A stretch of 64,000 nucleotides of DNA from an uncultured Candidatus Poseidoniales archaeon. GTDB lineage: Archaea > Thermoplasmatota > Poseidoniia > Poseidoniales > Thalassarchaeaceae. Below are positions 21,834 to 34,645 of this stretch, in pieces. The stretch lies in contig CACELO010000002.1 in the NCBI GenBank assembly GCA_902560445.1, forward strand, positions 66,468 through 130,467, read 5' to 3'. The notes under the pieces are model-generated. The model was not told the origin of the DNA, made no database searches, and was given only the letters and a program-made list of their open reading frames with translations. A program made the position numbers and the translations under genes. How positions within the stretch are numbered: the first letter of the stretch is position 1; each line of letters starts with the position of its first letter.

Positions 21834-22721
21834 TCAATTTCGAGTCCAAGATGGAATGAATACATCTCTCCAATTCGGAGTTGCAAGATATTCTTCCTCG
21901 GTAAAGAATGACCTTGCATAAATCGAAATAAAGTCGATAATTAGAACAACAATGTAGATAATAATCAGGTATGCAAATACCTTGTCATATTGTAAAAATC
22001 TAAGATACAGATCGATGTAATATCCAATTCCTCCTGCACCGACAATGCCGATTACAGTACCAGAACGGAAATTATATTCAAACATGAATATCGAGTGAGA
22101 AATTAGATCATTTGCGGCTTCAGGAATAACTACGTTAACTGCTACTTCCCAACGACTCAAGCCTATTGCATTCGCCGCATCCAAAGGAGTTTTTGTCAGA
22201 CCCTCAATTGATTCATACTGTAATTTTCCAAGATATCCCACTGTGTAAATTGTCATTGCCAGAACGCCAGCTAATGGACCTAAGCCGACTAGAATAACCA
22301 AGAAAATAGCCCAAATCAATGCTGGAAGACTCCTACATGCTGAGATAAGAAAGCGGGTAGGGTAAGATATCCATCGCGGGCTTAAATTTCTTGAAGCCAT
22401 GATTGACAAAGGTAATGTTACAACCATACCAAATACAGTTGCAACAAACGCAATCTTTAGCGTCTCAATAACTCCCTTCCAAGCGGTTGAGCAAGTGAAA
22501 TCGAAAATTGGTTGGGCAGTACAAACAGGATATGTTTGAGGCTCTAGAACGCTCATATCTGGTGGCCAAAGAGACTGAAAGAAGAATCTGACAAGATTAT
22601 CTGGGCCACCTGCTAATCTACCCCAGTCGCCAACCATTCCGTTTAGAATTACAATTGCAAGCAAAAGGAGAATCCATAGCACCAGAGCCATCTTTTCGCC
22701 ATCTACTGCTATCTTCTTCAT
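21834..22721 (-). CDS. ABC transporter permease, PhnE-like (phosphonate/phosphite-type family)
   Basis: 6 TM helices. EAA-loop LDAANAIGLSRWEVAVNVVIPEA. Confidence 0.75.
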   Translation of the reverse strand: MKKIAVDGEKMALVLWILLLLAIVILNGMVGDWGRLAGGPDNLVRFFFQSLWPPDMSVLEPQTYPVCTAQPIFDFTCSTAWKGVIETLKIAFVATVFGMVVTLPLSIMASRNLSPRWISYPTRFLISACRSLPALIWAIFLVILVGLGPLAGVLAMTIYTVGYLGKLQYESIEGLTKTPLDAANAIGLSRWEVAVNVVIPEAANDLISHSIFMFEYNFRSGTVIGIVGAGGIGYYIDLYLRFLQYDKVFAYLIIIYIVVLIIDFISIYARSFFTEEEYLATPNWRDVFIPSWTRN

Positions 22722-23428
22722 GAATTCAACACCACAGCTTTTGGTTTGGTAATGAATGGATTCACTCTTCCATCATCAATAACTAGGAGGCGATTTGCCA
22801 TTGACTTGGCTCTAGAAATATCATGCTCGACAACGATTAATGCTGAATTATTATCTTTCACGTAGCTTGTCACGCTTTCCAAAACCATAGCCAATGTTTC
22901 TTCGTCTAATTCACTCAAAAATTCATCTGCTAGAATTAATCTTGGTCGCTGAGCCAATGTTCTGGCCGTTGCGACTCTTCTCTGTTGGCCACCGGACAAC
23001 CTCCTAATTGGTTCTCTTGACTTTTCCTTAAGCCCCATTTGTTGAATTGCATTGGTAACTCGTTCCTTTCTTTCCTTCCTATCATTAGTTCCAGCTCGAG
23101 CACCCAACATTACATTGTGCCTAACACTTGCATGACGAACTAAACCCAATTTTTGTGGAATATACCCTAGTGCGCCACGGAGAGGTTTCGACGGAATTTC
23201 TGCACCACACACTGTGATCGAACCGGAAATTGGACGTATTAGTCCCGCAATTGTACCAAGTAAAGTTGACTTCCCGATACCAGAAGGGCCCGCTATGGCC
23301 ACTATTTCACCAGGGAATATTTCGAGATTGGGAATACTGACTAAGGGTGATTCAGTTTCATATCCGATTACTATATCTTCGAGGGAGACAATCGGATTTT
23401 CTGAACCCATACCCTCGGACAACTCCAA
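22718..23428 (-). CDS. ABC transporter ATP-binding protein, PhnC-like. The ORF starts on a TTG at 23428; the ATG at about 23410 (MGSENPIV...) is the likelier start.
   Basis: Walker A GPSGIGKSTLL, signature LSGGQQRRVATARTL, Walker B LILADEFLSELD. Overlaps the permease gene by 4 nt. Confidence 0.8.
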   Translation of the reverse strand: MELSEGMGSENPIVSLEDIVIGYETESPLVSIPNLEIFPGEIVAIAGPSGIGKSTLLGTIAGLIRPISGSITVCGAEIPSKPLRGALGYIPQKLGLVRHASVRHNVMLGARAGTNDRKERKERVTNAIQQMGLKEKSREPIRRLSGGQQRRVATARTLAQRPRLILADEFLSELDEETLAMVLESVTSYVKDNNSALIVVEHDISRAKSMANRLLVIDDGRVNPFITKPKAVVLNS

Positions 23429-23441
23429 AGCCCCCTTGTAA

Positions 23442-23457
23442 TTTAGGCGGCCCTAAA
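23442..23457. promoter_or_regulatory. 16-bp palindromic candidate operator TTTAGGCGGCCCTAAA upstream of the PhnC-like/PhnE-like ABC genes
   Basis: Perfect TTTAGG-N4-CCTAAA palindrome. Sits 30-45 nt upstream of the probable ATG, next to an AT-rich CCAATATATGG element. One of four copies in the window. Confidence 0.55.
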
Positions 23458-23514
23458 CCAATATATGGTATTGATGGGTTTAGTGATAACAAAATATCTT
23501 ACGAATCAGATAAC

Positions 23515-25611
23515 TTATATCGATTCTTGCAAGAATGAATAGGCTCCGGGTACAACACTTACCACCTCAGATAGCAAGCCAAGATGTTCTTGTGAATTTG
23601 TTCTAACAATCCCTGTACCATCGAGTATATTGTTTAGAATTTCATCACCACAGATTTCCCTATTATTATCTGAATTTACCTTGTGTGTAGAAATATCGTA
23701 ACAACCAGTATATGTTCCAAATCCGGGTCTAGAATAATTCTCTAGATACATCTGATAATTCAAAGTAACTAAGGCGTTGAGAATAGCGGCTCTACTTCTA
23801 GAATCAAGAGTCGAAGGGTTGTACATTACAGATTCACTTGGAGACACACCGACTTGACCCAAAGATAGGTACTGGTCAATTTCCATGCACCAATCTTGAT
23901 TTTCTTGTTCTTCTTGATTACAATTTTCTTCTAGTGCATCTTCTCCGACGAATGCTATTTCACTTACATTTTCGGATAGGCAGCTAATCGCACCTACCTC
24001 TCCCGCAGGGGTGCTTGAAGATGAAAGAAGAGATGATTGATTTCCAAAATAGCCGCGTATTGTTTCGATAATCTCGACATTTTCTTGATTAGGCGAATAA
24101 TACTCATTTTCAATTAGATAATGAATAGGAAGAATTGTGTGAATTGGAGATTGAGAACCGGTGAAGCAAGACACTCTTCCCTGCATCATTGCAAATGGAT
24201 CGGTGCTAGATTCATTGTCTGAACTTGCGGTAGCCAATTCTCCTAAATTTGAGACTAAGGCCATAGAATACCGCTGAGTCAATTGATCTTTGTTTTGTAT
24301 GGCTCCTAGAACTGATAGATTATGTAATTTCCATCCAATTAACGAAGAAGATGAAGGAAGAAATCCAATATGAGCCTCGCCTGTTTCAATTGATTCAATC
24401 ATTTCTGATTGAGAATTAACATAGTGAATTGAAACATTAATTCCTAATTCTATGGATAAAAATTCGGCTAAATGAATCGGGTCACTATTGGTTTCTAATT
24501 TTGATTCATCTAGTTCAAATGCAACAATTAATTCTTCTATTGTTATTGTTATTGATTGACTTCCATTGTCGGTATAATAAGCTGAAATCCCAGGGATATT
24601 CGAAACCAGAGGCGTGTATATACCAAGATGAGATTCAGAATCTGTAGAAACTACACCCTTTGTCCCTAGTGTGTTGTAGAGAATTTCGCTGTAATCCTCG
24701 TTTGAACTAAAGTCAATTAGAAAATCCGTAAGTTCACTGATTACTAAATCATCATCAAAATTAGAATGAGTCATGAAAACATCACTGGGGGTCTTAGCGA
24801 ATGGTTCGAGAGAAACATATCTCGAGGCATCCAAACACCATTCTTCGACATTATTTCCATTTTCTGTGGTGCAGTATTGAGAGGCCGTGTTATCCTTCGC
24901 AAATGCAACCTCACCGGAACCATCTGAAAGACATCTTAGAGCCCCTGAAAATCCATAGTACTGTGTGCCAGGTTCCGGAATTGATGAGTTTTCGTTAAAG
25001 AATTGAAAAATTGTATTTCTTAGAGATTCGATATCATTTGGATCGCCAATTACATTTGCATACCCCAATCCAAGGAAGAATCCCATTGGAACCATCATTC
25101 CTGTTGAGTGTAACCAACCCGTATGGCAGGAAGTTTTGCCTTGCATCAGTGAGAATGGATTTGTTAGCGGATCATCGTCAAAATATGCTTCTGCGATATC
25201 GCTATCGTCGAGAACCCAAGCGAGAGAATTGTAGTATGTCCTGCCGTCTGATTTTTGGTCCGCTGCAAAAGCCTGCAAACCGTATTGATTCCACCCAATC
25301 CAAGCAGCACCGCTATCCATTAGAGCGATGTCGGCATTTCCAAACCTTAGTGCCTCGAGTATCGCTGCTTCTGAATCAACGGCATATATTGTAAAATCAA
25401 ATCTACTGTTTTGGGTAAGAATTTCTGCCAGCATCTCAGGATTAGTTTCTGACTCAAGCATACCTTCGGACACTTCGAATGCCAGAACAATGGGAGTTCT
25501 TGTTTGATTATTTGATTCTTCAGAATCACTCAAGCAACCAGAGAGAGTGCTAGAAAGCAGGATAATGGTATAACAAATGACCAGTATTTTGTAATGTCTT
25601 TTTGTCGGCAT
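23515..25611 (-). CDS. Bilobal transferrin-family substrate-binding lipoprotein (N-lobe near-canonical, C-lobe degenerate); first gene of an SBP-ATPase-permease operon
   Basis: Signal/lipobox LLSSTLSGCLSD. N-lobe: GNADIALMDSGAAW, RTYYNSLAWVLDDS, QGKTSCHTGWLHSTGMMVPMGFFLG, TQYYGFSGALRCLSDGSGEVAFAKD, EEWCLDAS...FAKTPSDVF. C-lobe repeats the same order of blocks (QGRVSCFTGS..., GEVGAISCLSENVSEIAFVGED, DWCMEIDQ) with the ligand residues lost. Confidence 0.75.
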   Translation of the reverse strand: MPTKRHYKILVICYTIILLSSTLSGCLSDSEESNNQTRTPIVLAFEVSEGMLESETNPEMLAEILTQNSRFDFTIYAVDSEAAILEALRFGNADIALMDSGAAWIGWNQYGLQAFAADQKSDGRTYYNSLAWVLDDSDIAEAYFDDDPLTNPFSLMQGKTSCHTGWLHSTGMMVPMGFFLGLGYANVIGDPNDIESLRNTIFQFFNENSSIPEPGTQYYGFSGALRCLSDGSGEVAFAKDNTASQYCTTENGNNVEEWCLDASRYVSLEPFAKTPSDVFMTHSNFDDDLVISELTDFLIDFSSNEDYSEILYNTLGTKGVVSTDSESHLGIYTPLVSNIPGISAYYTDNGSQSITITIEELIVAFELDESKLETNSDPIHLAEFLSIELGINVSIHYVNSQSEMIESIETGEAHIGFLPSSSSLIGWKLHNLSVLGAIQNKDQLTQRYSMALVSNLGELATASSDNESSTDPFAMMQGRVSCFTGSQSPIHTILPIHYLIENEYYSPNQENVEIIETIRGYFGNQSSLLSSSSTPAGEVGAISCLSENVSEIAFVGEDALEENCNQEEQENQDWCMEIDQYLSLGQVGVSPSESVMYNPSTLDSRSRAAILNALVTLNYQMYLENYSRPGFGTYTGCYDISTHKVNSDNNREICGDEILNNILDGTGIVRTNSQEHLGLLSEVVSVVPGAYSFLQESI

Positions 25612-25908
25612 TGATCAAAACCTCTGTCTACCCGACTCTTGCTCAGGATGCTGATTTTTCAATGTTAGTCCTGAAGGAAATAACATAATTTTCAGTTTAA
25701 TCCTGGTGTTGACAGGGGAACCTGTGATGTGTACAGATGCTCCTATGTGACGCTGTTAGAGTCCCCCGTGCCAACGGGTATTGCCAATGCTATTGGCTAA
25801 GGTTGTTGACAGGGGGCCTATTGCGTTCGAATACGAAATTCGAATGTAGGTGTCAGGCGCTGATACGCCCCCTGCCAACTGTTTTGTCTTATCGACTGGT
25901 TACGTACT

Positions 25909-27144
25909 TCATTGGAGAGTTCCAATGTCTTCGGCTGTGATGCCAAATGCATCCCAGACTGGCTGTAGATAGGAGCGGATATCCGCTTCGTAATCTGCTG
26001 TTGCATCTCCATCATTCTTCAGATCGAAGATTTCGAGAATCTTGTCATTGTAGTAATTAGCATACCACCCAAATGCCTCGCACTCCTCCTCTGACATACC
26101 CTCATGCTGAGCGTGTGTCACTGAATTATAGCATCCTGTGAATTCCTCTCCACTCGGATCGTTTGGAGAAGTGTAGTTCTCCAGATACATGTATGCCTCG
26201 CAGGATGCCTGTGAGCTATCCGATGAGACCGTGTGAGATACCATGTTGTAGCAGATCGAAGTGTACTCAGCGACATATGCCTCGATTACCCTGTAGAAGG
26301 CGTGACCCTCTGCCTGGTGCTTGTCGTAGTCTGCAGTATCTCCAGCAGCTAGGTCGTCCGTCATCTTTGATGCGTACCTCACAGAAGCCTGTGAGTAGAC
26401 GATTACAATATTCTTCAGAACCTCGTCGCGTGCGTCGACTACTCCTTGCATATCTTCATTCTGAAGTGCAGTCAAGCCAGCGTTCATTGCGGCTAGAGTA
26501 GCGATGTTTGTAGCATCACCAGTCCCAAAGTTGCCCCCTCTCTTGGCAGCGGTTGCATATGGCCCACATCCATCGTAATCATGGTTGGAATCGTCAGGAC
26601 CATGGTAGAAAGCCCATCCTTCGTCCCAAGCGTGTTGAGCGTCATCGGCCCCCCAGTTTCCTGCTTCCGCCTTGATGATTGCAGCGTTGAGTTCATGGAT
26701 TGCATAAGCAGTCATCACACCATTCTGGATTCCCTTTTCGACTGCTTGATCTCTGACTGTGTCAGATTCTCCCTCGAAAGGACCTGTGCCATCAATAGCC
26801 GCAGATACGAAGTCATTCCATGAGCCGTCTGCATCATAGTATGCGTCGTAGGCGTGGTTCTTGCCGGAAGCATCTGCGAAGCCCATGAGGGTCCTGTAGG
26901 AACCGTCGGACTTCTCCGCGTGCTTTCCATCATCATAGATATCCTTCACACCGTCCCAATCGTATGCACCAGAGAGGTCCTTAATATCGCAGACATCACC
27001 CATTAACATTCGGTGATTATCAACGTTGGAAGCATACGTGTATCCTCCATCTGCGTCATCAAGATCTACATCATCTCCTGCACAACCGGCAATCGCACTG
27101 CCGATTAATACTAAAGTCATCATTAAAGTCATTGTTCTATTCAT
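25909..27144 (-). CDS. Secreted lipoprotein, Asp/Tyr/His-rich, unknown function (possibly imelysin/EfeO-like and iron-related)
   Basis: Lipobox LVLIGSAIAGCAGDD. HQAEGH (HxxE) and HAWDEGWAFYHG motifs. Two palindromic operator copies sit in its promoter region. Confidence 0.5.
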   Translation of the reverse strand: MNRTMTLMMTLVLIGSAIAGCAGDDVDLDDADGGYTYASNVDNHRMLMGDVCDIKDLSGAYDWDGVKDIYDDGKHAEKSDGSYRTLMGFADASGKNHAYDAYYDADGSWNDFVSAAIDGTGPFEGESDTVRDQAVEKGIQNGVMTAYAIHELNAAIIKAEAGNWGADDAQHAWDEGWAFYHGPDDSNHDYDGCGPYATAAKRGGNFGTGDATNIATLAAMNAGLTALQNEDMQGVVDARDEVLKNIVIVYSQASVRYASKMTDDLAAGDTADYDKHQAEGHAFYRVIEAYVAEYTSICYNMVSHTVSSDSSQASCEAYMYLENYTSPNDPSGEEFTGCYNSVTHAQHEGMSEEECEAFGWYANYYNDKILEIFDLKNDGDATADYEADIRSYLQPVWDAFGITAEDIGTLQ

Positions 27145-27146
27145 AG

Positions 27147-27162
27147 TTTAGGTCTCCCTAAA
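27147..27162. promoter_or_regulatory. Palindromic candidate operator TTTAGGTCTCCCTAAA, 3 nt upstream of the start codon of the 411-aa lipoprotein gene
   Basis: TTTAGG-N4-CCTAAA palindrome, operator-proximal copy. Confidence 0.55.
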
Positions 27163-27190
27163 CCGGCCGGATAGCGAATCGTATATGAAA

Positions 27191-27206
27191 TTTAGGGCGC
27201 CCTAAA
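27191..27206. promoter_or_regulatory. Palindromic candidate operator TTTAGGGCGCCCTAAA in the divergent promoter region (lipoprotein gene on the minus strand, GDPD-like gene on the plus strand)
   Basis: Perfect 16-bp palindrome. Separated from copy 27147..27162 by 28 nt that include TTTCATATA (TATA-like on the minus strand). Confidence 0.55.
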
Positions 27207-27299
27207 CTCTTGAATCGTGCGTGGAAAATTGTCATATAACTGATGAGCAGTCAATTGAATTGGAGACGAGGTTTTTTTACTCATTTCTATTCGTAAATA

Positions 27300-27905
27300 T
27301 TGGTTTTAGTTACAAGGAGAGGATTAGTCTTGAGGAATTTGGGGCATAGATTGGGGGCTTCTGGTACCAAAATGGAAAATACCATTGACGGGCTTATGAA
27401 TTCATTAGAACAGGTAAATAATAGAAAATTTAAGTATTGGGAATTTGATATTAGAGAATCTTTGGATGGAATAATTTTTGTCTTTCATGATGATCAAATA
27501 CTTGTAGATGGAGAATTAATCGAAACCGCCAAATTGAATTTCTCTGAAATAATGAAAGCGGGTGAGGATTTGGGGGTAAAGATACCTACATTTTCAGAAG
27601 TTGTTGAAATATTGGGTGACCGGAAAGAAGATGTCATGGTTGAAGTGAAAGAATTGAGAACTGATGCCGCTAGAAGAACCGTAATCACTGCGATTTCTAG
27701 TAAACCAAATTGGAAACTGATGGCTACTCCAACTAGATTCTTGGAATCTTTTCCTAGTGAATCCAGGGAGTATTGGGAGCGATTTACTCGAGATTTGGAC
27801 GTAGAATTCGTTAGAGTTGGCCGCCATAAATTGGACCTTTTCAGCGCTTCTAAATCCTATTTTAGGTGGAAATTTGCTCGATTTAAATGGTTTTTCGGGA
27901 TTTAA
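27300..27905 (+). CDS. Glycerophosphodiester phosphodiesterase-like (GDPD family) protein. Likely start is the TTG at about 27329, downstream of a GGAGAGGA RBS.
   Basis: GHRLGASG...ENTIDGL...WEFDIRESLDGIIFVFHDD follows the GDPD HRG/ENT/E-D/HD pattern. Confidence 0.5.
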   Translation: MVLVTRRGLVLRNLGHRLGASGTKMENTIDGLMNSLEQVNNRKFKYWEFDIRESLDGIIFVFHDDQILVDGELIETAKLNFSEIMKAGEDLGVKIPTFSEVVEILGDRKEDVMVEVKELRTDAARRTVITAISSKPNWKLMATPTRFLESFPSESREYWERFTRDLDVEFVRVGRHKLDLFSASKSYFRWKFARFKWFFGI

Positions 27906-27968
27906 TAATGATGACTATTTTGAATTAATTTTTCCTACAATTGATTATGAACCCCATTACTCACCCTA

Positions 27969-28403
27969 ATGTTGAAGAAAATGGTCAGTACTGATGAGTT
28001 AATTGTGGCGCTAAATAATGCTCTCGCTTGGGAATTAAGGGCTATTGCAATGTATGCTCACTATTCCGCATACGTTTCAGGGATTCATAGATTACAACTT
28101 TCGGTATTCTTCAATAATGAAGTAACAGAATCAATTGCGCATGCTTCAACCGTAAGATCCGCTATAGTGAAATTACACGGTAAGGCCACTACGGAGAGGG
28201 CAGAAGACCCTATTTTACACTCAATGGACTTCCGAGATATGTTGGAAGAGGCACACAAAACTGAGTTGAAAGCTAGCGAGACATATGGAGAAATTTTACC
28301 AATGGTTGAGCAAATTGGGGATAGCGAACTTTTTGATGCCCTGGAAGTTATTTACTTTGATGAACTGAGATCTGTAGAAGAATTGAGAATGATGCTTGGT
28401 TGA
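27969..28403 (+). CDS. Ferritin-like (bacterioferritin/Dps-like four-helix bundle) protein
   Basis: LNNALAWELRAIAMYAHYS...EVTESIAHASTVRSAI...EEAHKTELKASETYG: paired E...H / ExxH-like diiron-site spacing typical of ferritin-like proteins. Confidence 0.5.
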   Translation: MLKKMVSTDELIVALNNALAWELRAIAMYAHYSAYVSGIHRLQLSVFFNNEVTESIAHASTVRSAIVKLHGKATTERAEDPILHSMDFRDMLEEAHKTELKASETYGEILPMVEQIGDSELFDALEVIYFDELRSVEELRMMLG

Positions 28404-28429
28404 GATTTAAACATACTATTTACCGTTAG

Positions 28430-28445
28430 TTTAGGGTGCCCTAAA
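28430..28445. promoter_or_regulatory. Palindromic candidate operator TTTAGGGTGCCCTAAA between a TTTAAA TATA-like element and the start of the monolobal transferrin-like gene
   Basis: TTTAGG-N4-CCTAAA palindrome about 20 nt downstream of TTTAAA (about 28405) and about 30 nt upstream of ATG 28476. That placement would overlap the TSS. Confidence 0.55.
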
Positions 28446-28475
28446 CATTATCAAACAAACCGATTTCGGAGATGT

Positions 28476-29546
28476 ATGGAAAAAACTAGTTGGGCTGGTT
28501 GGGCCAAAGCTAACAAAGCACTTTTGCTCGCTGGATTAGTGCTATCTGCGACCGTATTGTATCTCATTTTCGACATTAATTACGAACAATGTGATGATCA
28601 AGATAACTGTATTACAATCGCTTTTGAGGTACAAGATGACTATTTGTATTTTGGAAAAGAGAACCCTCAGCACTTGGCAGACAAAATGAGTGCTCTGACT
28701 GGTATGGATGTTGAAATAATGCCTGTATCGAATTCCGGCGCGATAATCGAGGCTATCAATAATGGCAATGCGGATATTGGATTTGTAGATGGAGCGGCCG
28801 CTTGGCTTGCATGGGAAGTTTACGATTTGGACGTGCTAGCGGCAGAGTGGAAATTTGATCAAAGGACGTACTATAATGCGGCAGCCTGGGTGAAAAAGGA
28901 CTCTGAAATTGCAGACGCGTATCTAGATGATGATCCAGATACAGACCCATTTGCTTTAATGAATGGAAAAACGTCTTGCCATACAGGATGGCTGAAAAGT
29001 GCTGGGATGTTGATTCCAATGGGTTACTTGATTGGAAATGGGTATGCCGAGGTGCGTGGAGATCCTGAAGAAATTACTTCACTACGAGATACAGTGACGC
29101 ATTTCTTCAACGAAGATTCAAGCATACCTGACGGAGGTACTCAATATTCCGGATATAAGGGGGCATTGAAGTGTATGATGACTGATCGCGGAGACGTTGC
29201 TTTAGTCAAGGATACAGCATATATGCTCTACTGTGACGAAAATGAGGACGGAATTGCAGATGGTCCTGATTGGTGTTTGGATAGAGATGAGCTCGTTATG
29301 CTCGAGTCATTTGGTCGAGCACCGAGTCACCCCGCTTTGTATAATCCCTCAGCTATGAATAACGAAACGGTCGAACTAATTCAAAATGCATTGGTGGATA
29401 TGAATAATGATGAAGAAGGTACAAAGATACTCTCCGATGTCTTAAACACTGAAGGAATGGTTGTTACGAATGCTACTGCTCACCTAGGCACATATGGTGC
29501 GGCTGTAGAGAACGTCCCTGGAATACAAGCATTTTTTGAGGATTGA
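28476..29546 (+). CDS. Monolobal transferrin-family iron-binding protein (membrane-anchored/secreted) with a complete Asp/Tyr/Tyr/His ligand set
   Basis: NADIGFVDGAAAW (Asp), RTYYNAAAWVKKDS (Tyr), GKTSCHTGWLKSAGMLIPMG (anion-site Thr; Arg replaced by Lys), QYSGYKGALKCMMTDRGDVALVKD (Tyr), DWCLDRDE...GRAPSHPALYNPS (His). N-terminal TM anchor. Confidence 0.75.
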   Translation: MEKTSWAGWAKANKALLLAGLVLSATVLYLIFDINYEQCDDQDNCITIAFEVQDDYLYFGKENPQHLADKMSALTGMDVEIMPVSNSGAIIEAINNGNADIGFVDGAAAWLAWEVYDLDVLAAEWKFDQRTYYNAAAWVKKDSEIADAYLDDDPDTDPFALMNGKTSCHTGWLKSAGMLIPMGYLIGNGYAEVRGDPEEITSLRDTVTHFFNEDSSIPDGGTQYSGYKGALKCMMTDRGDVALVKDTAYMLYCDENEDGIADGPDWCLDRDELVMLESFGRAPSHPALYNPSAMNNETVELIQNALVDMNNDEEGTKILSDVLNTEGMVVTNATAHLGTYGAAVENVPGIQAFFED

Positions 29547-29592: not shown

Positions 29593-30798
29593 ATGAGAGT
29601 GACCATCACTATCCTAATTTTATTGATAATATCTCTATTTTCTGGATGTTTTTCAGACGATGGAGATGATTTTGATTGGACTGATCCCCAAACAACAGAG
29701 TGCAATTTAGGCAATAACCTAACTTGTACTAATTTGTTTCCGGGAGCTGGTACTCCTCATCACTCAGAAGTAAATCCTCAAACTAATGAATTATGGATAA
29801 TTTATCTCAGTGGAATGGTAAAAATTTGGCAAGATGATGAACTAATACAAGCTGGTGACTTAAGTGAAATTGTAAATAGATGCCATACAGAACAAGGATT
29901 GCTTGGATTTGCATTCGATGCCAACTATAATTCTTCCAAACAACTATTGTTATCATATGTGGAAAAAGGCAGCTGCGAAGGGGCGAATAATGCAGACCTC
30001 GTTCTTGCTTCAGTTGTTGTTACTGATGATGATATGATAAATTTGGACTCGTTAATCGTCTTGAAAACCGTAGAACAACCATACAGGAATCATAACGGGG
30101 GGCATTTACATGGTTTGGGTAATGGAGAATACCTCTGGGGAATTGGAGACGGAGGTGGAGCTAACGACCCAGAAAAGAATGGGCAGAATTCTGAAAATTT
30201 ATTGGGCACTATTGTTTACTTCCAATACTCAAATGGCGATGTTAATCCGATAATGGATTCAGAAAATGGAAACCCCTACATCTTGCACTATGGTTTGCGA
30301 AATCCATGGAAATTCGACGTGGGCCCTAATGAGGAACTATGGATTGCTGATGTCGGACAAAATTGTTGGGAAGAAATTAATTTGGTAAATTTGGTAAACA
30401 AATCAAACCTTGGGTGGTCAGAAAAAGAAGGATTCAGTGATTTTTCCGAAGGTGGAAGTTGTGAAGGAGGAGTTCTATCTGAAAATAATGAATTTACAGA
30501 CCCTGTCTTTGTCTATGGTCACAATAACGGAAATTGTTCCATAACCGGTGGCTTTTGGACTGAGAATACAATAATCTCAGACCAAGGTGGTTATCTGTTT
30601 GGAGACTTTTGTTCTGGTTCGCTATGGATTCTTTCCAATGGTGTAAATCACACATGGAAAGAGACCTATCTTGGTAACGTGGGGGGACTAATTGTAGGGT
30701 TTGGAGAAGGGGCTAATGGTGAGCTTCTGGTCTTTTTCTGGACTGGAGAAATCATACAAATCACTCAATCCGCTGCCGCCGATAGCAATATCGTGTGA
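29593..30798 (+). CDS. Lipoprotein of the soluble PQQ-dependent sugar (glucose/sorbosone) dehydrogenase beta-propeller family
   Basis: Lipobox ISLFSGCFSDDG. GLLGFAFD, NHNGGHLHGLGNGEYLWGIGDGGGANDPEKNGQNSENLLGTIVYF and GLRNPWKFDVGPNEELWIADVGQNCWEEINLV match GSDH family blocks. Confidence 0.65.
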   Translation: MRVTITILILLIISLFSGCFSDDGDDFDWTDPQTTECNLGNNLTCTNLFPGAGTPHHSEVNPQTNELWIIYLSGMVKIWQDDELIQAGDLSEIVNRCHTEQGLLGFAFDANYNSSKQLLLSYVEKGSCEGANNADLVLASVVVTDDDMINLDSLIVLKTVEQPYRNHNGGHLHGLGNGEYLWGIGDGGGANDPEKNGQNSENLLGTIVYFQYSNGDVNPIMDSENGNPYILHYGLRNPWKFDVGPNEELWIADVGQNCWEEINLVNLVNKSNLGWSEKEGFSDFSEGGSCEGGVLSENNEFTDPVFVYGHNNGNCSITGGFWTENTIISDQGGYLFGDFCSGSLWILSNGVNHTWKETYLGNVGGLIVGFGEGANGELLVFFWTGEIIQITQSAAADSNIV

Positions 30799-32815
30799 TA
30801 CCTGCTCCAGTATTGTGATGAGACGCCAAGGCGCGCTTAGAATCGTGGTCATGATTACGATTATTGGAATGATGATTTCTTCGTTACAAATCGGCTACCA
30901 ACAAGGTGGTCTTGATGAATCTCAAGACAGAAGAGAACAGCTCGGCCCTGATGAGCCTACACTGGAGGAGCGATGTAGCGTCCTTACTTTCGAGGATATG
31001 TTTGAGTATACTAAAGCAGTATTCAATTTCACTATTGCCAATGATTGGAGTTCTGCCGAAATTGAAGCAGTTGCTTGGGTAAATGGGACTTTGGCAGATG
31101 ATGTAAGACAGAGTTTAGATGAATATATTGCACAAATCTACCCAAGTGGCGATGATGGCTGGATTTCTACCGATGAAAGGGAGGGAGTCAGAGCTATTGC
31201 TTCGGAGTGTGTTCAATACACGTTTACTAGAATGGGTATGCGTGATGGAAGTCCTCACAGAGGAGGTGACGGTACCGATTGGAAAAACACATCTTGGAAC
31301 GAAGACGAGGTCCTAGTAGAAGAATGGAATCTAGTCCCTCCTCGACATTCGGAATCGAGAGAATGTTCAGGGATTGGTAGTGGTAGCGATTGCTACGAGG
31401 TTCCGGTATATCCGGATAGTGAACGAGATTGCGACACCGAGGTAGATTCATCGAGCAGTCAAGATGAATGTAGAATGAAGTTATGGCTAAATGCTACCAT
31501 GATAATCTCCGAGATAAATGATCCAAGTGACTTCACAATAGCCTATAATGCCTCAAACATGAGTGGGGCTGAATATCATATCAAATTCCCCGTAACCGAA
31601 GGACTCCGACTAGATATGTGGGAGGAATGTGAAGGACGAGACGTGCAAGTGGATATGGGTGATTTTGCTGGTGTGGCTCCTCTGAGAGGTAGTTGTATTG
31701 GTGACGGTTCTAGCAGCTATGAACTTAATGAAAACGAAGATGGAAGTCTAACTTACTCCTTCTATCCCAACATGCCTCAGTGGCCTGTAGGAGAGGACCT
31801 GTTTGCCGACTTTACAACTGCACCAATCCCAGTGGACGACCCTCCTGTCTGGACTGATAGCGCACCGACAGATGGAGCCTGGTTCCCTCGTGCGAGTGGG
31901 GGGGCACAGATTATCGCGGACTGGAATGAAGTTCAAAATTGGTTCAATGATGAGGCTGGAGTATCGAACCTTGAGATGAATTGTAGAGGTGATGCAGGAT
32001 TAGTAATTACCTACTCACAACGAGAGTTGTCGATGGATGTACCAAGAGGTCAGGCAGGAGAGGTCACCTGTGAAGCAATCGACAGTTCTGGCCAATCCTC
32101 AGGAAATAGAACTTGGAATGTAGGAGTTCCATTCCAAATTTCAACTACAGATACTGAACTATCAGACCCACATCCGATTACTCTCTCTCCAACCGCTGGC
32201 TGGCCTGATCTATCTGTAGAACTCGGATTTTCCTCAAGCTTCGAAGAGGCAGGAACATATTACGGCCCATATTCAATCCAAGGCTCGGAAATAACTCAAG
32301 ATATTGCTGTGGTGGGACTTGTCCCCGGTCCAGTATATGTCGCTGTAATAGTAACCGGAGAAGGAGTTTATAGTTTGCAAGCGACTTATGATTTGGGGAT
32401 TCAAAAGGCCAGCAGTCCTCCAATAATGACAGTCACCACCGAAGGGTGGGATGGTAATTCATGGTCAATGAGTGGTCAATTCTCCGACCCCGATGGTGAA
32501 ACGATTAGTTTCAGCCTGATGATTGATGGGGCCTCAGTTGGAAGTATTACGGTCAGTGGCAATATGTGGTCTACACCTGCGATTGATTTCTCAGTATGGA
32601 CAGAAGGTTCACATATTGTTGAGGTTCAAGCCTGTGATGAGTCTGGCCTATGTTCAAGTCAGCAACGTAGCGTTGACAATACTCATTTGTTCGTTGATCC
32701 TGAACCTGAACCTGAACCACCGAAGGATAACTCTTCGGTTCTTCCCTCAATGGGATTGGCCGGTCTGATTCTTGCGGCATCTGCCGCACTCATATACTCG
32801 GGCCGACGCGACTGA
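30701..32815 (+). CDS. Large secreted cell-surface protein with a C-terminal PEPEPEPP linker plus hydrophobic anchor (variant PGF-CTERM-like). The true start is probably at about 30815 (MRRQGALRIVVMITIIGMMISSL signal).
   Basis: Internal signal-peptide-like Met. The ORF as drawn overlaps the upstream gene by about 100 nt. C-terminal LPSMGLAGLILAASAALIYSGRRD. Confidence 0.55.
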   Translation: MEKGLMVSFWSFSGLEKSYKSLNPLPPIAISCDTCSSIVMRRQGALRIVVMITIIGMMISSLQIGYQQGGLDESQDRREQLGPDEPTLEERCSVLTFEDMFEYTKAVFNFTIANDWSSAEIEAVAWVNGTLADDVRQSLDEYIAQIYPSGDDGWISTDEREGVRAIASECVQYTFTRMGMRDGSPHRGGDGTDWKNTSWNEDEVLVEEWNLVPPRHSESRECSGIGSGSDCYEVPVYPDSERDCDTEVDSSSSQDECRMKLWLNATMIISEINDPSDFTIAYNASNMSGAEYHIKFPVTEGLRLDMWEECEGRDVQVDMGDFAGVAPLRGSCIGDGSSSYELNENEDGSLTYSFYPNMPQWPVGEDLFADFTTAPIPVDDPPVWTDSAPTDGAWFPRASGGAQIIADWNEVQNWFNDEAGVSNLEMNCRGDAGLVITYSQRELSMDVPRGQAGEVTCEAIDSSGQSSGNRTWNVGVPFQISTTDTELSDPHPITLSPTAGWPDLSVELGFSSSFEEAGTYYGPYSIQGSEITQDIAVVGLVPGPVYVAVIVTGEGVYSLQATYDLGIQKASSPPIMTVTTEGWDGNSWSMSGQFSDPDGETISFSLMIDGASVGSITVSGNMWSTPAIDFSVWTEGSHIVEVQACDESGLCSSQQRSVDNTHLFVDPEPEPEPPKDNSSVLPSMGLAGLILAASAALIYSGRRD

Positions 32816-33569
32816 GTTCGTGAGCTTCTCAGGCACCGTGGACAGAGAGTCGCATGAAGGGGGCCTCCTCGTTTCCTTTGAGGGACGTGCGCCGAGACTT
32901 GGGGCTACTTTACGAATAATCGGTGGAAAGCCGATTGGTAAGGTTAATTCAGTAATTGGAGCGATTGATGGGGCGTTTGTTCACATTCATCCAATTACAG
33001 ATCAAATAGAAGTCACAAGCACAATCGGCTCTCCGGTTGAAATCGCTCCAAGAGAGAAAAAAGAGTATCGTGGTCGTGGAAGAGATAGTTACTCGAAAAG
33101 AAATTCTCGCCGTGATAGGCGACATGGTGGGAATAATGACAGAAAAGGCGGAGATTGGACTTGTCCAAAGTGTAACAATTCTAATTTTGCCTTTCGAAAG
33201 AAGTGTAATCGCTGTGAAGCAGATAGGCCTCGAGATGGAGGAAGGAAATTCGAAAGAAAATTTGAACGAGGTGGTAACAATAAGCAAAAAGGAGGTGATT
33301 GGACTTGCCCTAAGTGCAACAACTCTAACTTCGCCTTCAGAGATAAATGCAATCGCTGTGATGCTAGTCGACCTAGCTCAGGTGGCAAGGCCCCCTCGAG
33401 AAGTAGATCCAACCAAAACCGAGGTCCTAGGCCTCAACGAGGCCCATCTGGACGAGGGCGAGGGCGAGCCCCGGGGAGCGCAAGTAAACCACGAAGATCT
33501 GGATTCAGAGGAACTGGCCGAGGTGGTCCTAGAGGTAATCGACCAGGAAGAGGTAGCGGTAGGCGCTGA
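32772..33569 (+). CDS. gar1: H/ACA ribonucleoprotein subunit Gar1 homolog fused to two RanBP2-type zinc fingers and a C-terminal RGG/GAR-rich tail. The start could be the GTG at about 32820, just after the upstream stop.
   Basis: Gar1 barrel: GTVDRESHEGGLLVSFEGRAPRLGATLRIIGGKPIGKVNSVIGAIDGAFVHIHPI (cf. archaeal Gar1 G.V...G.LIV....P.L...V...IG.V.DVFGP...PY..VKP). Two copies of W-x-C-x2-C-x3-N-x6-C-x2-C (GDWTCPKCNNSNFAFRKKCNRC and GDWTCPKCNNSNFAFRDKCNRC). Tail: GRGRGRAPGS...GFRGTGRGGPRGNRPGRGSGRR. Confidence 0.7.
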   Translation: MRHLPHSYTRADATEFVSFSGTVDRESHEGGLLVSFEGRAPRLGATLRIIGGKPIGKVNSVIGAIDGAFVHIHPITDQIEVTSTIGSPVEIAPREKKEYRGRGRDSYSKRNSRRDRRHGGNNDRKGGDWTCPKCNNSNFAFRKKCNRCEADRPRDGGRKFERKFERGGNNKQKGGDWTCPKCNNSNFAFRDKCNRCDASRPSSGGKAPSRSRSNQNRGPRPQRGPSGRGRGRAPGSASKPRRSGFRGTGRGGPRGNRPGRGSGRR

Positions 33570-33616
33570 GTTTGGGTCACCCCAGCATTCATTTTGTCTA
33601 ATCCCGAGCAAGACCT

Positions 33617-34645
33617 ATGGCGAACAAGGCGGATATGCTCTGGGAAGATGTTCTCGATCTTGAAGAGGCTGGTGAGAGGCTGGAAGCCCTCGATCTATGT
33701 CGCCAAATCACCCGCATGGAGCCAGACCATGCCGCCGCTTGGAAAATGACCGCAAGGATGACTCTTCCAGCAGCAAGGAGAGGTGTGCAAGATATGCCTA
33801 CTCTACGACAAGCGGCTAGTGCTTATTCCGCATTACAAAATGTCGTGAGATTGGAACCAGAGGATACAGAATCATGGGCATTGGGAGGAATTCTTCTCGT
33901 TGACCACCTGGGTATGCTAGAAGAAGCACTTGAGTGGTGGCAGCAAAGAAGGCAAGTCAACCCCGAAGATGTGATGCCACTAATCGAACAAATTGCCATT
34001 CTTGTACGGCTTGGGATGTATTCTGAAGCTAGCGAGTTGTTGGAAATCATGTTCGACTCGGAAATGGAACAACCAGACCGTAAGCAACTAATCAATATGG
34101 ATCGAGTTAGACAGATGGTTGACAAGGCGGCCAAAATGGAGAAAGAGGAAATATTCAGACCACAAAATCCCAAACATCCTCGATGGGAGATAATCGGTCG
34201 AATGAAAACTCGTAAACCGCTCTCTGAAACCTTCTTCCTGTTCACTTTTGTTGCTCCAATTGTATTCATTATTGGCAGTATAGCTATGAGTGCACTTGGA
34301 GGTAGTCAATATGGCTTCATTTTAGTATTTTTGATTATTCTAGCGCTATTTATGGTGGTAAGTCGAGCCGGTGCTGGATTATTACAAAAACTCAATCGGC
34401 ACGCACTTGACTTAGAAAGAGCGATTGATATTGAAGCTACTTCAGGAAAGGTGTGTGTACCTGCCGAAATTCGCGGTAGTAAACTCTACAATTATATGAT
34501 TGGAAAACGAACTGAAGCCTTCCAAGACCGCCATAGTAAAATTATTGATTCAGACGAAATTATTGATAAAAAGTGGAAACCAGAAATACTCGGTTTTTCA
34601 AACATGGAAAGTAGGTGGGGAGAGGCTGAGGAATCCGAGGATTAA
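33617..34645 (+). CDS. TPR-like helical-repeat protein with a C-terminal double TM anchor, unknown function
   Basis: Helical-repeat N-terminus (LEALDLCRQITRMEPDHAAAWKM...). TM helices FFLFTFVAPIVFIIGSIAMSAL and FILVFLIILALFMVV. Confidence 0.45.
   Translation: MANKADMLWEDVLDLEEAGERLEALDLCRQITRMEPDHAAAWKMTARMTLPAARRGVQDMPTLRQAASAYSALQNVVRLEPEDTESWALGGILLVDHLGMLEEALEWWQQRRQVNPEDVMPLIEQIAILVRLGMYSEASELLEIMFDSEMEQPDRKQLINMDRVRQMVDKAAKMEKEEIFRPQNPKHPRWEIIGRMKTRKPLSETFFLFTFVAPIVFIIGSIAMSALGGSQYGFILVFLIILALFMVVSRAGAGLLQKLNRHALDLERAIDIEATSGKVCVPAEIRGSKLYNYMIGKRTEAFQDRHSKIIDSDEIIDKKWKPEILGFSNMESRWGEAEESED

What the first reader, a model, noticed from the sequence alone, without database searches (positions are those of the whole stretch)
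23442..28445. Four copies of a 16-bp palindrome TTTAGG-N4-CCTAAA confined to promoters of the iron island: candidate metalloregulator (DtxR/IdeR-like) operator
TTTAGGCGGCCCTAAA (about 23442) lies upstream of the PhnC/E-like ABC genes. TTTAGGTCTCCCTAAA (about 27147) and TTTAGGGCGCCCTAAA (about 27191) lie in the promoter of the 411-aa lipoprotein gene, flanking a TATA-like TTTCATATA and touching the start codon. TTTAGGGTGCCCTAAA (about 28430) lies between a TTTAAA box and the monolobal transferrin-like gene. I found no further copies elsewhere in the 64 kb. The TTAGG...CCTAA half-sites resemble the ends of the DtxR/IdeR iron box (TTAGGTTAGGCTAACCTAA). The positions, overlapping TATA/TSS, fit a repressor. 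This independently supports the view that the locus is an iron-responsive regulon, and it defines a motif that could be used to find the rest of the regulon.
Basis: seen in the sequence. Interest (0 to 1): 0.8.

Follow-up and report, generated by a model that had tools for sequence, protein, structure and literature searches.

The report
Iron-repressor operator in marine archaeal iron genes
The four 16-bp palindromes are real, strongly conserved binding sites of the kind used by DtxR-family iron repressors, and they mark an iron-uptake gene set in Marine Group II archaea that I found described nowhere in the literature I searched; the type of site itself is already known from other archaea.

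Summary
Observation confirmed. TTTAGG-N4-CCTAAA occurs exactly four times in the 64 kb (0 expected), always in non-coding DNA in front of iron genes. The window comes from a Ca. Thalassarchaeum MAG (Marine Group II, Poseidoniales).

- **Conservation:** 68 of 71 related loci with the Fea1 5' region have an exact copy upstream. The other three are fragments or weak partial matches. Fea1 protein identity falls to 41% while the 12 core bases stay invariant.
- **Placement:** about 154 copies in 1.13 Mb lie essentially all in the 5% that is intergenic. The spacer is strictly 4 bp.
- **Promoter anatomy:** each site abuts a TATA-like box or lies between TATA and the start, which are repressor positions.
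- **Identity:** the motif equals the ChIP-seq motif of the Haloferax volcanii DtxR-family regulator TroR (TTTAGGC-NNN-CCTAAA). In a metagenome scan the same palindrome sits directly upstream of DtxR-family genes, and of FeoB, FTR1 and multicopper oxidase genes, in unrelated organisms.
- **Gap:** the regulator gene was not found in the window or the related loci. Published tables list troR (DtxR family) in 220 of 250 MGII genomes.

This is a new member of a known kind and of moderate interest. It implies that the "phosphonate" ABC transporter of MGII belongs to an iron regulon.

The parts
23442..23457 (.). Operator copy 1 (TTTAGGCGGCCCTAAA), in front of the ABC ATPase/permease genes. On the gene strand it lies between a TATA-like box and the start.
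   Evidence: Homologous sites precede the ABC ATPase gene in related loci.
23460..23467 (-). TATA-like box (CCATATATT on the minus strand) immediately upstream of operator 1.
   Evidence: Sequence. The string 'ccatatat(g/t)gg' is conserved directly 5' of the operator in ABC ATPase promoters of related loci. Its function is inferred.
27147..27162 (.). Operator copy 2 (O2, proximal), 2 nt before the Fea1 ATG. The predicted transcription start falls in it. Its spacer with flanking G's reads GGGAG 9 nt before the ATG on the gene strand.
   Evidence: 49 related loci have two sites at this promoter, counting sites with at most one mismatch.
27182..27190 (-). TATA-like box TTTCATATA between the two Fea1 operators.
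   Evidence: The consensus WTnATAWA directly after the distal operator is conserved across loci.
27191..27206 (.). Operator copy 3 (O1, distal), a perfect 16-bp palindrome TTTAGGGCGCCCTAAA that abuts the TATA box, at the BRE position.
28430..28445 (.). Operator copy 4, 30 nt before the ATG of the 356-aa transferrin-like binding protein.
   Evidence: Homologous sites lie 30-32 nt before the ATG in most related loci.
28446..28455 (+). TATA-like box CATTATCAAA directly after operator 4. It implies a leaderless or nearly leaderless mRNA.
   Evidence: 'ttttatc', 'cattatc' or 'tttatca' are conserved at this position in relatives. Inferred.
25909..27144 (-). Target gene: 411-aa Fea1-family protein (low-iron-inducible periplasmic protein family).
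   Evidence: Pfam PF07692, E=3e-19.
23515..25611 (-). 698-aa double Phosphonate-bd/Transferrin binding protein, downstream of Fea1. It has no operator of its own in this window.
   Evidence: In some Marine Group II contigs tandem operators lie next to a homologue of this protein and no Fea1 homologue is detected (L187, L205, L238).
21834..23428 (-). Target genes: ABC ATPase (22718-23428) and permease (21834-22721).
   Evidence: Pfam ABC_tran and BPD_transp_1.
28476..29546 (+). Target gene: 356-aa single-lobe transferrin-like binding protein. It is followed on the same strand by genes for a GSDH-like protein, a 704-aa Ig-domain protein, a Zn-ribbon protein and a TPR protein (to 34645), which may be co-transcribed.
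   Evidence: Pfam. The best matches among solved structures are transferrins, with ovotransferrin at 3e-20. In other loci the 704-aa gene diverges from Fea1, about 30 nt from the distal operator.

Best explanation
The four palindromes are operators for a dimeric, metal-sensing transcription factor of the DtxR family. The factor is most likely the TroR/IdeR-type regulator annotated in most Marine Group II genomes. With iron bound, it would sit on TTTAGG-N4-CCTAAA and shut off the iron-uptake genes.

At the transferrin-like and Fea1 promoters the operator abuts the TATA box and covers the BRE position, so a bound factor would compete with TFB and TBP. At the second Fea1 site and at the ABC ATPase promoter the operator lies between TATA and the transcription start, so it would block RNA polymerase recruitment. 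When iron is scarce the factor would leave the DNA and the Fea1 protein, the transferrin-like binding proteins and the ABC transporter would be made.

Shown here:
- the motif is real and is conserved across the order;
- it is confined to these promoters, with a fixed 4-bp spacer and phased tandem copies;
- it is identical to an experimentally defined DtxR-family motif;
- it is physically associated with DtxR-family genes elsewhere.

Inferred: the identity of the Marine Group II factor, iron as the signal, the transcription starts, and repression as the direction of control.
For: 1. Significance: 4 exact copies against 0 expected.

2. Phylogenetic footprint. The window is from a Ca. Thalassarchaeum MAG. 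69 of 73 related loci carry the motif. 68 of 71 loci with the Fea1 5' region have an exact copy upstream, and the other three are fragments or weak partial matches. Fea1 protein identity falls to 41%.

3. Placement. 145 of 157 exact copies lie in the 5% of sequence that is intergenic. The 12 'coding' copies lie in or just before the first 74 nt of ORF calls that are probably over-extended, apart from two that fall in short unannotated ORFs upstream of Fea1 or the ATPase gene. At two mismatches the ratio reverses to 21 coding and 2 intergenic.

4. Geometry. The spacer is strictly 4 bp, with 154 copies against 3 or fewer for any other spacing from 0 to 12. The flanks are symmetric: never C at position -1 and almost never G at +16. 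Centre-to-centre spacing of the tandem Fea1 sites is 34, 43-45 or 53 bp, which is steps of about one helical turn.

5. Promoter anatomy. A TATA-like WTnATAWA follows the distal operators directly. The ATG lies 30-32 nt after the operator at the transferrin-like gene. At the ABC ATPase promoter the operator lies between TATA and the start.

6. Known cognate. Haloferax volcanii TroR (DtxR family) has the ChIP-seq motif TTTAGGC-NNN-CCTAAAANAN, with tandem copies about 30 bp apart. It represses uptake genes when iron is replete, and mutating both copies abolishes repression (PMC10783522).

7. Independent association. A metagenome scan with the motif returned 80 loci. Eleven are Marine Group II iron islands. 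In at least 6 unrelated contigs the palindrome lies 1-57 nt upstream of a DtxR-family gene. One is from Methanomassiliicoccales, in the same phylum, and has an archaeal TATA. Two have bacterial TTGACA-17-TATAAT promoters. Other downstream genes are FeoB, FTR1, multicopper oxidases, TonB-receptor Plug-domain proteins and a nicotianamine-synthase-like protein. A DtxR-FeoB operon from an abundant archaeon shows the same one-mismatch variants (TTTCGG.., ATTAGG..) around its TATA box.

8. Regulator in the order. 'troR; DtxR family transcriptional regulator' is listed in 140 of 158 and 80 of 92 Marine Group II genomes (Tully 2019, Supplementary Data 10).
Against: - No DtxR- or Fur-family ORF is present in the window, in 1.1 Mb of related loci, or in the roughly 6 kb gained upstream of the window. 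The regulator of this genome was never seen.
- Three database routes to a Poseidoniales DtxR sequence failed.
- There are no expression or binding data for Marine Group II.
- TATA boxes and transcription starts are inferred from sequence only.
- An operator just upstream of TATA can also act positively in archaea, and TroR activates dpsA in Haloferax.
- The metal could be manganese rather than iron, as the KEGG name suggests.
- Three metagenome hits 'in DtxR genes' are a coding coincidence, because TTA GGN NNN CCT AAA encodes LGxPK. They must not be counted as operators.
Confidence: 0.85

Rival explanations
1. The element works at the RNA level, as a hairpin in the 5' leader or between cistrons that controls translation, stability or termination.
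For: Each copy can fold into a 7-9 bp hairpin of -7.9 to -10 kcal/mol. Sites 1 and 4 lie between genes on the same strand. Site 2 would sit in the Fea1 leader, and its loop region carries GGGAG 9 nt before the ATG.
Against: - Fold z-scores are only -1.2 to -2.3, and no terminator-like sites are found.
- Both arms are invariant in sequence over about 154 copies, while the spacer varies freely.
- The recurrent variants TTTCGG..CCTAAA and ATTAGG..CCTAAA (8 loci each) break a pair without compensation.
- The site works in both orientations. It can serve divergent genes from the centre of a 76-nt spacer, and distal copies lie upstream of the TATA box, so they would not be transcribed.
- The same sequence is a ChIP-defined DNA site.
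Confidence: 0.03
2. It is an operator, but for a regulator outside the DtxR family, for example a Fur-, ArsR- or TrmB-type protein.
For: The regulator of this genome was not identified, and no DtxR gene is near the island.
Against: The motif is identical to the TroR ChIP-seq motif. It recurs directly upstream of DtxR-family genes in at least 6 unrelated contigs and one further operon. It corresponds to the TTAGG-N4-CCTAA unit inside the classical DtxR/IdeR box. troR is listed in 88% of Marine Group II genomes.
Confidence: 0.06
3. It is a DtxR-family site, but it acts mainly as an activator site, or as a dual switch, recruiting TFB/TBP under some metal condition rather than repressing.
For: The distal operators lie directly upstream of TATA, a position some archaeal activators use (own knowledge). 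TroR activates dpsA in Haloferax. DtxR directly induces ferritin in C. diphtheriae (PMC13001254). A ferritin-like gene sits inside the island.
Against: The operator touches the TATA box and therefore covers the BRE itself. The second Fea1 site and the ABC ATPase site lie between TATA and the start, which are classic repressor positions. The targets are uptake genes, which TroR and DtxR repress. There is no operator in front of the ferritin-like gene.
Confidence: 0.05
4. It is a specialised core-promoter element (a BRE/TATA variant read by an alternative TFB or TBP) or a small mobile repeat, not a regulator site.
For: The half-site CCTAAA runs into an A/T-rich TATA-like stretch. The copies are nearly identical.
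Against: The full palindrome with its strict 4-bp spacer is conserved even where only one gene is served. The same site also occurs downstream of TATA (ABC ATPase, second Fea1 site). Flanks beyond about 2 nt are not conserved, so this is not a transposed unit. The same palindrome is used behind bacterial sigma-70 promoters.
Confidence: 0.01

Closest known systems
TroR box of Haloferax volcanii (DtxR-family regulator; ChIP-seq motif TTTAGGC-NNN-CCTAAAANAN; PMC10783522)
   Same: The same 6-4-6 palindrome with an A/T-rich 3' flank. Tandem copies sit in promoters of iron-uptake genes. In Haloferax it mediates repression when iron is replete.
   Different: The host is a different class of archaea. 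Position 7 is mostly G here and C there. The sites here touch the TATA box or the start codon, whereas the paper places the motif about 100 nt upstream of start codons. The targets are Fea1 and transferrin-like proteins instead of siderophore genes. The regulator here has not been identified.
Classical DtxR/IdeR iron box of Corynebacterium and Mycobacterium (19 bp, TTAGGTTAGGCTAACCTAA)
   Same: It shares the TTAGG/CCTAA recognition pentamers. The 19-bp box contains TTAGG-N4-CCTAA at positions 6-19, and a near-mirror copy at positions 1-14.
   Different: The 19-bp form is absent here: TTAGG-N9-CCTAA occurs 0 times in the window plus 73 loci, and the best match is 15 of 19. From my own recollection of the DtxR/IdeR-DNA crystal structures, the 19-bp box binds two dimers on opposite faces. 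The 16-bp site here fits one dimer. That step is inference.
Autoregulated DtxR-family operons in Methanomassiliicoccales and other uncultured archaea and bacteria
   Same: The identical palindrome lies next to an archaeal TATA box or behind a bacterial -10 box, upstream of DtxR-family, FeoB, FTR1 and multicopper oxidase genes.
   Different: In those cases the regulator gene sits directly at the site. In the Marine Group II islands it does not.
Comparative-genomics reconstructions of archaeal DtxR-family regulons (Leyn and Rodionov 2015, J Bacteriol 197:451)
   Same: Palindromic DtxR-family motifs were predicted upstream of metal-uptake genes in archaea. This rests on my recollection of the abstract and on how PMC10783522 cites it.
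   Different: The paper could not be read here. The citing paper describes its data set as covering Euryarchaeota, Crenarchaeota and Korarchaeota, and I do not recall Marine Group II genomes being included; I could not check this.

Membership tests
DtxR-family (TroR/IdeR-type) operator | Palindromic site matching an experimentally defined DtxR-family motif | tested here: met
   TTTAGG-N4-CCTAAA against the TroR ChIP-seq motif TTTAGGC-NNN-CCTAAAANAN.
DtxR-family (TroR/IdeR-type) operator | Located in promoters of metal-uptake genes and not spread through coding DNA | tested here: met
   Targets are Fea1, transferrin-like binding proteins and ABC genes. 145 of 157 exact copies are intergenic, and the rest lie at or just before over-extended ORF starts or in short unannotated ORFs within the same promoters. 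Elsewhere the targets include a ZIP-M28 fusion and ferrochelatase.
DtxR-family (TroR/IdeR-type) operator | Association of the same site with DtxR-family genes (autoregulation) in other genomes | tested here: met
   At least 6 unrelated metagenome contigs and one DtxR-FeoB operon. Three intragenic hits are excluded as a coding coincidence.
DtxR-family (TroR/IdeR-type) operator | A DtxR-family regulator encoded in the same genome | tested here: inconclusive
   None in the window, the 73 loci or the upstream extension, and the rest of the MAG could not be read. The literature lists troR in 220 of 250 Marine Group II genomes.
DtxR-family (TroR/IdeR-type) operator | Metal-dependent binding and repression | not testable with these tools
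   Needs EMSA or footprinting, reporters, or metatranscriptomes.
Classical 19-bp double-dimer DtxR/IdeR iron box | 19-bp TTAGGTTAGSCTAACCTAA with the outer pentamers 9 bp apart | tested here: not met
   TTAGG-N9-CCTAA occurs 0 times in the window plus 73 loci. The best window match is 15 of 19 and overlaps site 4.
Structured RNA element or intrinsic terminator | Pairing kept by compensatory changes; for a terminator, a U-tract after the stem | tested here: not met
   The arms are invariant. The recurrent single changes are not compensated. There are no terminator-like sites. Fold z-scores are -1.2 to -2.3. There are no Rfam matches apart from tRNAs.

The most novel reading that the evidence does not exclude
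The iron box defines an order-wide iron regulon in the most abundant planktonic archaea of the surface ocean, and I found no description of it. The regulon is built on a Fea1/phytotransferrin-like protein and transferrin-like binding proteins. The ABC system listed in the Marine Group II literature as core 'phosphonate transport' would then be an iron-regulated, transferrin-type iron importer. The conserved neighbours (a GSDH-like protein, a 704-aa Ig-domain protein, a Zn-ribbon protein and a TPR protein) would be further parts of that machinery. In addition, one palindrome would double as the BRE for leaderless promoters, sometimes serving two divergent genes at once.
Probability: 0.55. Interest if true: 0.65.

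Novelty: new member of a known kind. Interest (0 to 1): 0.45.

Why it matters
Marine Group II archaea are uncultured, so almost nothing is known about how they regulate genes. This motif provides a sequence-only handle on one regulon.

- It can be scanned across their genomes to list iron-responsive genes.
- It predicts which transcripts should respond in iron-addition experiments at sea.
- It argues that the transporter repeatedly annotated as 'phosphonate uptake' belongs to iron acquisition. Its binding protein matches transferrins best, and it sits under an iron box next to a Fea1-family protein.
- The identical site is bound by TroR in the genetically tractable Haloferax volcanii, so Marine Group II promoters could be tested there directly.

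The mechanism itself, a DtxR-family repressor on a palindrome, is standard.

Tried and rejected
- **Regulator next to the island.** phmmer with remembered DtxR, IdeR, MntR and Fur sequences against all ORFs of the window and 73 loci found nothing. Pfam on the window ORFs of at least 100 aa up to 57525 (those beyond, and the 2161-aa ORF, were not scanned) and on conserved neighbours found no metal regulator.\n- **Extending the contig.** Three edge proteins were not on record, probably because my start codons differ from the called ones. One worked and added about 6 kb, containing only an HTH_10 regulator.\n- **Fetching a Poseidoniales DtxR.** A profile of bacterial DtxR proteins returned only actinobacterial hits. 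The Methanomassiliicoccales seed returned only its own order. The representative search gave 150 unnamed proteins. Thirty were looked up, chosen by rank and composition, and turned out to be Methanomethylophilaceae, Thermoplasmata, Geothermarchaeales, Thorarchaeota, Freyarchaeota and unnamed. None was Poseidoniales. An abundant candidate (P0402) turned out to sit in a DtxR-FeoB operon of a CofC-bearing archaeon. P0306 lay on a 1-kb contig. One protein search was left unused because no seed was likely to reach Marine Group II.\n- **Literature.** Leyn and Rodionov 2015 is not held. No paper links Marine Group II to DtxR, phytotransferrin or iron regulation.\n- **Viral-contig control.** A viral-contig scan with a narrower variant of the motif (RTTTAGGGNNNCCTAAAWWT) gave 105 scattered single hits. 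I took this as about chance level, but I did not examine them.\n- **Other island genes.** Flavodoxin, the FecCD/periplasmic-binding-protein genes and the CREG/DUF2470 gene have no operator of their own upstream.


Full report
**Observation.** The pattern TTTAGGNNNNCCTAAA occurs exactly four times in the 64-kb window, at 23442, 27147, 27191 and 28430. None was found in 100 dinucleotide-preserving shuffles. Allowing two mismatches adds one site, at 62482, where about 2.5 are expected by chance. So there are four perfect copies and no degenerate halo. All four lie in non-coding DNA.
- Site 1 lies between the stop of a 698-aa gene and the start of an ABC ATPase gene.
- Sites 2 and 3 lie in front of a 411-aa gene on the minus strand. 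TTTCATATA sits between them, and site 2 ends 2 nt before the ATG.
- Site 4 lies 30 nt before the ATG of a 356-aa gene.

**Context.** Pfam assigns these genes as follows.

| Gene | Pfam assignment |
|---|---|
| 411-aa protein | Fea1 (low-iron-inducible periplasmic protein) |
| 698-aa protein | Phosphonate-bd + Transferrin, double |
| 356-aa protein | Phosphonate-bd + Transferrin, single |
| two genes after site 1 | ABC ATPase and permease |
| 144-aa protein | ferritin-like |

The best sequence matches of the 356-aa protein among solved structures are eukaryotic transferrins, with ovotransferrin at 3e-20. The window is archaeal: it has 3-dehydroquinate synthase II and a weak, sub-threshold PGF-CTERM match. 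It is identical to a contig of a Ca. Thalassarchaeum MAG of Marine Group IIb, order Poseidoniales.

**Conservation.** A search with the Fea1 protein returned 73 loci from Poseidoniales genomes, with protein identity from 100% down to 41%.
- Sixty-nine of the 73 loci contain the exact palindrome.
- Of 71 loci that include the Fea1 5' region, 68 have an exact copy just upstream. The three exceptions are gene fragments or weak partial matches.
- In 1.13 Mb of these loci, 145 of 157 exact copies lie in the 5% that my rough gene calls leave as intergenic. The 12 'coding' copies lie in or just before the first 74 nt of ORFs that my caller probably extended too far upstream, apart from two that fall in short unannotated ORFs upstream of Fea1 or the ATPase gene. 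With two mismatches the picture reverses to 21 coding and 2 intergenic, which is background.
- The spacer is strictly 4 bp: 154 copies, against at most 3 for any other spacing from 0 to 12.
- The flanks are symmetric. Position -1 is never C and position +16 is almost never G, while the four spacer bases vary.

The same three promoters carry the site throughout the order. Fea1 has two copies in 49 loci, counting sites with up to one mismatch. The single-lobe transferrin-like gene has one copy, as does the ABC ATPase gene. Occasional further targets are a ZIP-M28 fusion and a divergent ferrochelatase. The two Fea1 copies are 34, 43-45 or 53 bp apart centre to centre. These are steps of about one helical turn, as expected for proteins bound on one face of the DNA.

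**Anatomy.** Aligned promoters show a TATA-like element, consensus WTnATAWA, starting directly after the operator at the transferrin-like promoter and after the distal Fea1 operator.
- At the transferrin-like gene the ATG follows 30-32 nt after the operator. This fits a leaderless or nearly leaderless mRNA, with the operator lying where the BRE should be.
- At Fea1 the order is operator, TATA, about 28 nt, second operator, then the ATG at 0-4 nt or after a short leader with GGAG.
- At the ABC ATPase promoter the TATA-like 'ccatatat' lies upstream of the operator, and a GGTGG or GGGGG motif follows it. The operator therefore lies between TATA and the start.
- In several genomes one palindrome sits in the middle of a 76-nt spacer, 30 nt from each of two divergent start codons.

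These positions are those of archaeal repressors that exclude TFB/TBP or RNA polymerase. The TATA boxes and starts are inferred from sequence and were not measured.

**Which protein binds.** Three lines point to the DtxR family.
1. In Haloferax volcanii the DtxR-family regulator TroR has the ChIP-seq motif TTTAGGC-NNN-CCTAAAANAN, often in tandem about 30 bp apart. It represses iron-uptake genes when iron is replete, and repression is lost when both copies are mutated (PMC10783522). That is the same 6-4-6 palindrome.
   - Eleven loci are Marine Group II iron islands.
   - In at least six unrelated contigs, with G+C from 0.46 to 0.73, the palindrome lies 1-57 nt upstream of a DtxR-family gene.
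   - One of these regulators belongs to Methanomassiliicoccales, in the same phylum as Marine Group II, and its site is followed by TTTAATATA.
   - Two others sit behind bacterial TTGACA-17-TATAAT promoters.
   - Among 38 genes just downstream of intergenic hits, the commonest families are the two DtxR domains and FeoA. FeoB, FTR1, multicopper oxidases, TonB-receptor Plug domains and a nicotianamine-synthase-like protein also occur.
   - A DtxR-FeoB operon from another abundant archaeon carries TTTCGGTTCACCTAAA and ATTAGGTTAGCCTAAA around its TATA box. These are the same one-mismatch variants seen in Marine Group II.
   - Caveat: TTA GGN NNN CCT AAA also encodes the conserved LGxPK of DtxR proteins. 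Three hits inside DtxR genes are therefore coincidences and were excluded.
3. The classical 19-bp IdeR box TTAGGTTAGGCTAACCTAA contains TTAGG-N4-CCTAA at positions 6-19, and a near-mirror copy at positions 1-14. From what I recall of the DtxR/IdeR-DNA crystal structures, that box binds two dimers on opposite faces. The site here looks like the single-dimer unit. The 19-bp form itself is absent: TTAGG-N9-CCTAA occurs 0 times and the best match is 15 of 19.

**The regulator gene.** I did not find it. No DtxR or Fur homologue is present in the window, in the 73 loci, or in about 6 kb gained upstream of the window. Several database routes did not reach a Poseidoniales sequence. Published tables list 'troR; DtxR family transcriptional regulator' in 140 of 158 and 80 of 92 Marine Group II genomes (Tully 2019, Supplementary Data 10). 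The family is therefore a core feature of the order. Its presence in this particular MAG, and its binding to these sites, remain untested.

**Rivals.**
- *RNA hairpin.* This is unlikely. The folds are modest, at -7.9 to -10 kcal/mol with z-scores of -1.2 to -2.3. No terminator-like sites are found. The arms never covary, the recurrent single changes are uncompensated, and the distal copies lie upstream of the TATA box.
- *A regulator of another family.* This cannot be excluded without the protein, but it would have to explain the identity with the TroR motif and the repeated adjacency to DtxR-family genes.
- *An activating role.* This is possible in principle, since TroR activates dpsA and DtxR induces ferritin. 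The sites here cover the BRE or lie between TATA and the start, and they serve uptake genes, so repression is the better reading.
- *A mobile repeat or a special core-promoter element.* This does not fit the non-conserved flanks or the use of the same site on either side of TATA.

**Comparison and novelty.** What I found described nowhere in the searched literature is this regulon in Marine Group II and its content. That content is a Fea1-family protein, transferrin-like binding proteins, their ABC transporter, and probably the conserved genes that follow or diverge from them. The Marine Group II literature lists 'transport of phosphonates' and phnE as core traits. This most likely refers to this transporter, which the operator places in an iron regulon. 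I file the finding as a new member of a known kind, of moderate interest.

**Limits.** Gene calls in the related loci are my own rough ORF calls. The metagenome scan was truncated and used a pattern biased towards sites followed by a TATA-like box. Metal specificity, the direction of control and the transcription starts are all inferred.

Noticed in passing
window 25805-25879 (-) and 25708-25775 (-); for example L005:11249-11320, L022:11277-11358: A conserved structured element lies directly 3' of the Fea1 gene on the sense strand. There are two tandem copies here and one copy in 17 further loci (21 loci plus the window in all). The closing stem is GTTGGCxGGGGG...CCCCCxGTCAAC. It has 13 pairs, 4 of them with compensatory changes, and an invariant G.U pair, which points to RNA. 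Rfam has no family for it at gathering score in the window, nor in three loci, one of which (L005) carries the element. Its function is unknown; it could be a 3' UTR or an attenuator before the next genes.
   Followed up: partly
window 21834-25611 and 28476-29546: The ABC system whose binding proteins hit Pfam Phosphonate-bd is probably what Marine Group II papers call core 'phosphonate transport' (PMC6336850). Here the best matches of the binding protein among solved structures are transferrins, and the genes sit under an iron box. The phosphonate annotation may be wrong.
   Followed up: partly
L207:2324, L239:9110, L190:468: The operator sequence read as TTA GGN NNN CCT AAA encodes L-G-x-P-K of the conserved LGxPKFDPHG stretch of DtxR proteins. 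Motif scans therefore hit inside DtxR genes by coincidence, which can inflate an apparent motif-regulator association.
   Followed up: yes
L015 (PARX01000028.1, labelled Rhodobacteraceae bacterium) and L026 (DEAP01000005.1, labelled Dehalococcoidia bacterium): These contigs carry the Marine Group II Fea1 gene (79% and 73% identity) with the same operators. They are probably mis-binned archaeal contigs in bacterial MAGs.
   Followed up: no
related loci, Fea1 promoters; window 27147-27206: Centre-to-centre spacing of the two Fea1 operators takes only the values 34 (10 loci), 43-45 (38 loci) and 53 bp (1 locus). These are steps of about one helical turn.
   Followed up: yes
window 27300-27905: The GDPD-like ORF probably starts at TTG 27330, behind AGGAGAGG (27315-27322), rather than at the ORF caller's TTG 27300. 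The ferritin-like gene after it has no operator of its own.
   Followed up: no
window 29593-34645; loci L004-L068: Genes for a 704-aa Ig-domain protein, a Zn-ribbon (RanBP-type) protein and a TPR protein accompany the island in 39-54 loci. In many loci the 704-aa gene diverges from Fea1, with the distal operator about 25-50 nt from its start. These may be co-regulated components of unknown function.
   Followed up: partly
L192, L212, L260, L257, L221, L246 (metagenome contigs): The same palindrome precedes multicopper oxidase, nicotianamine-synthase-like, FTR1 and glutamyl-tRNA reductase genes in other uncultured organisms whose taxonomy I did not determine. L221 has the Marine Group II-like layout, with the ATG 31 nt after the site.
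   Followed up: partly
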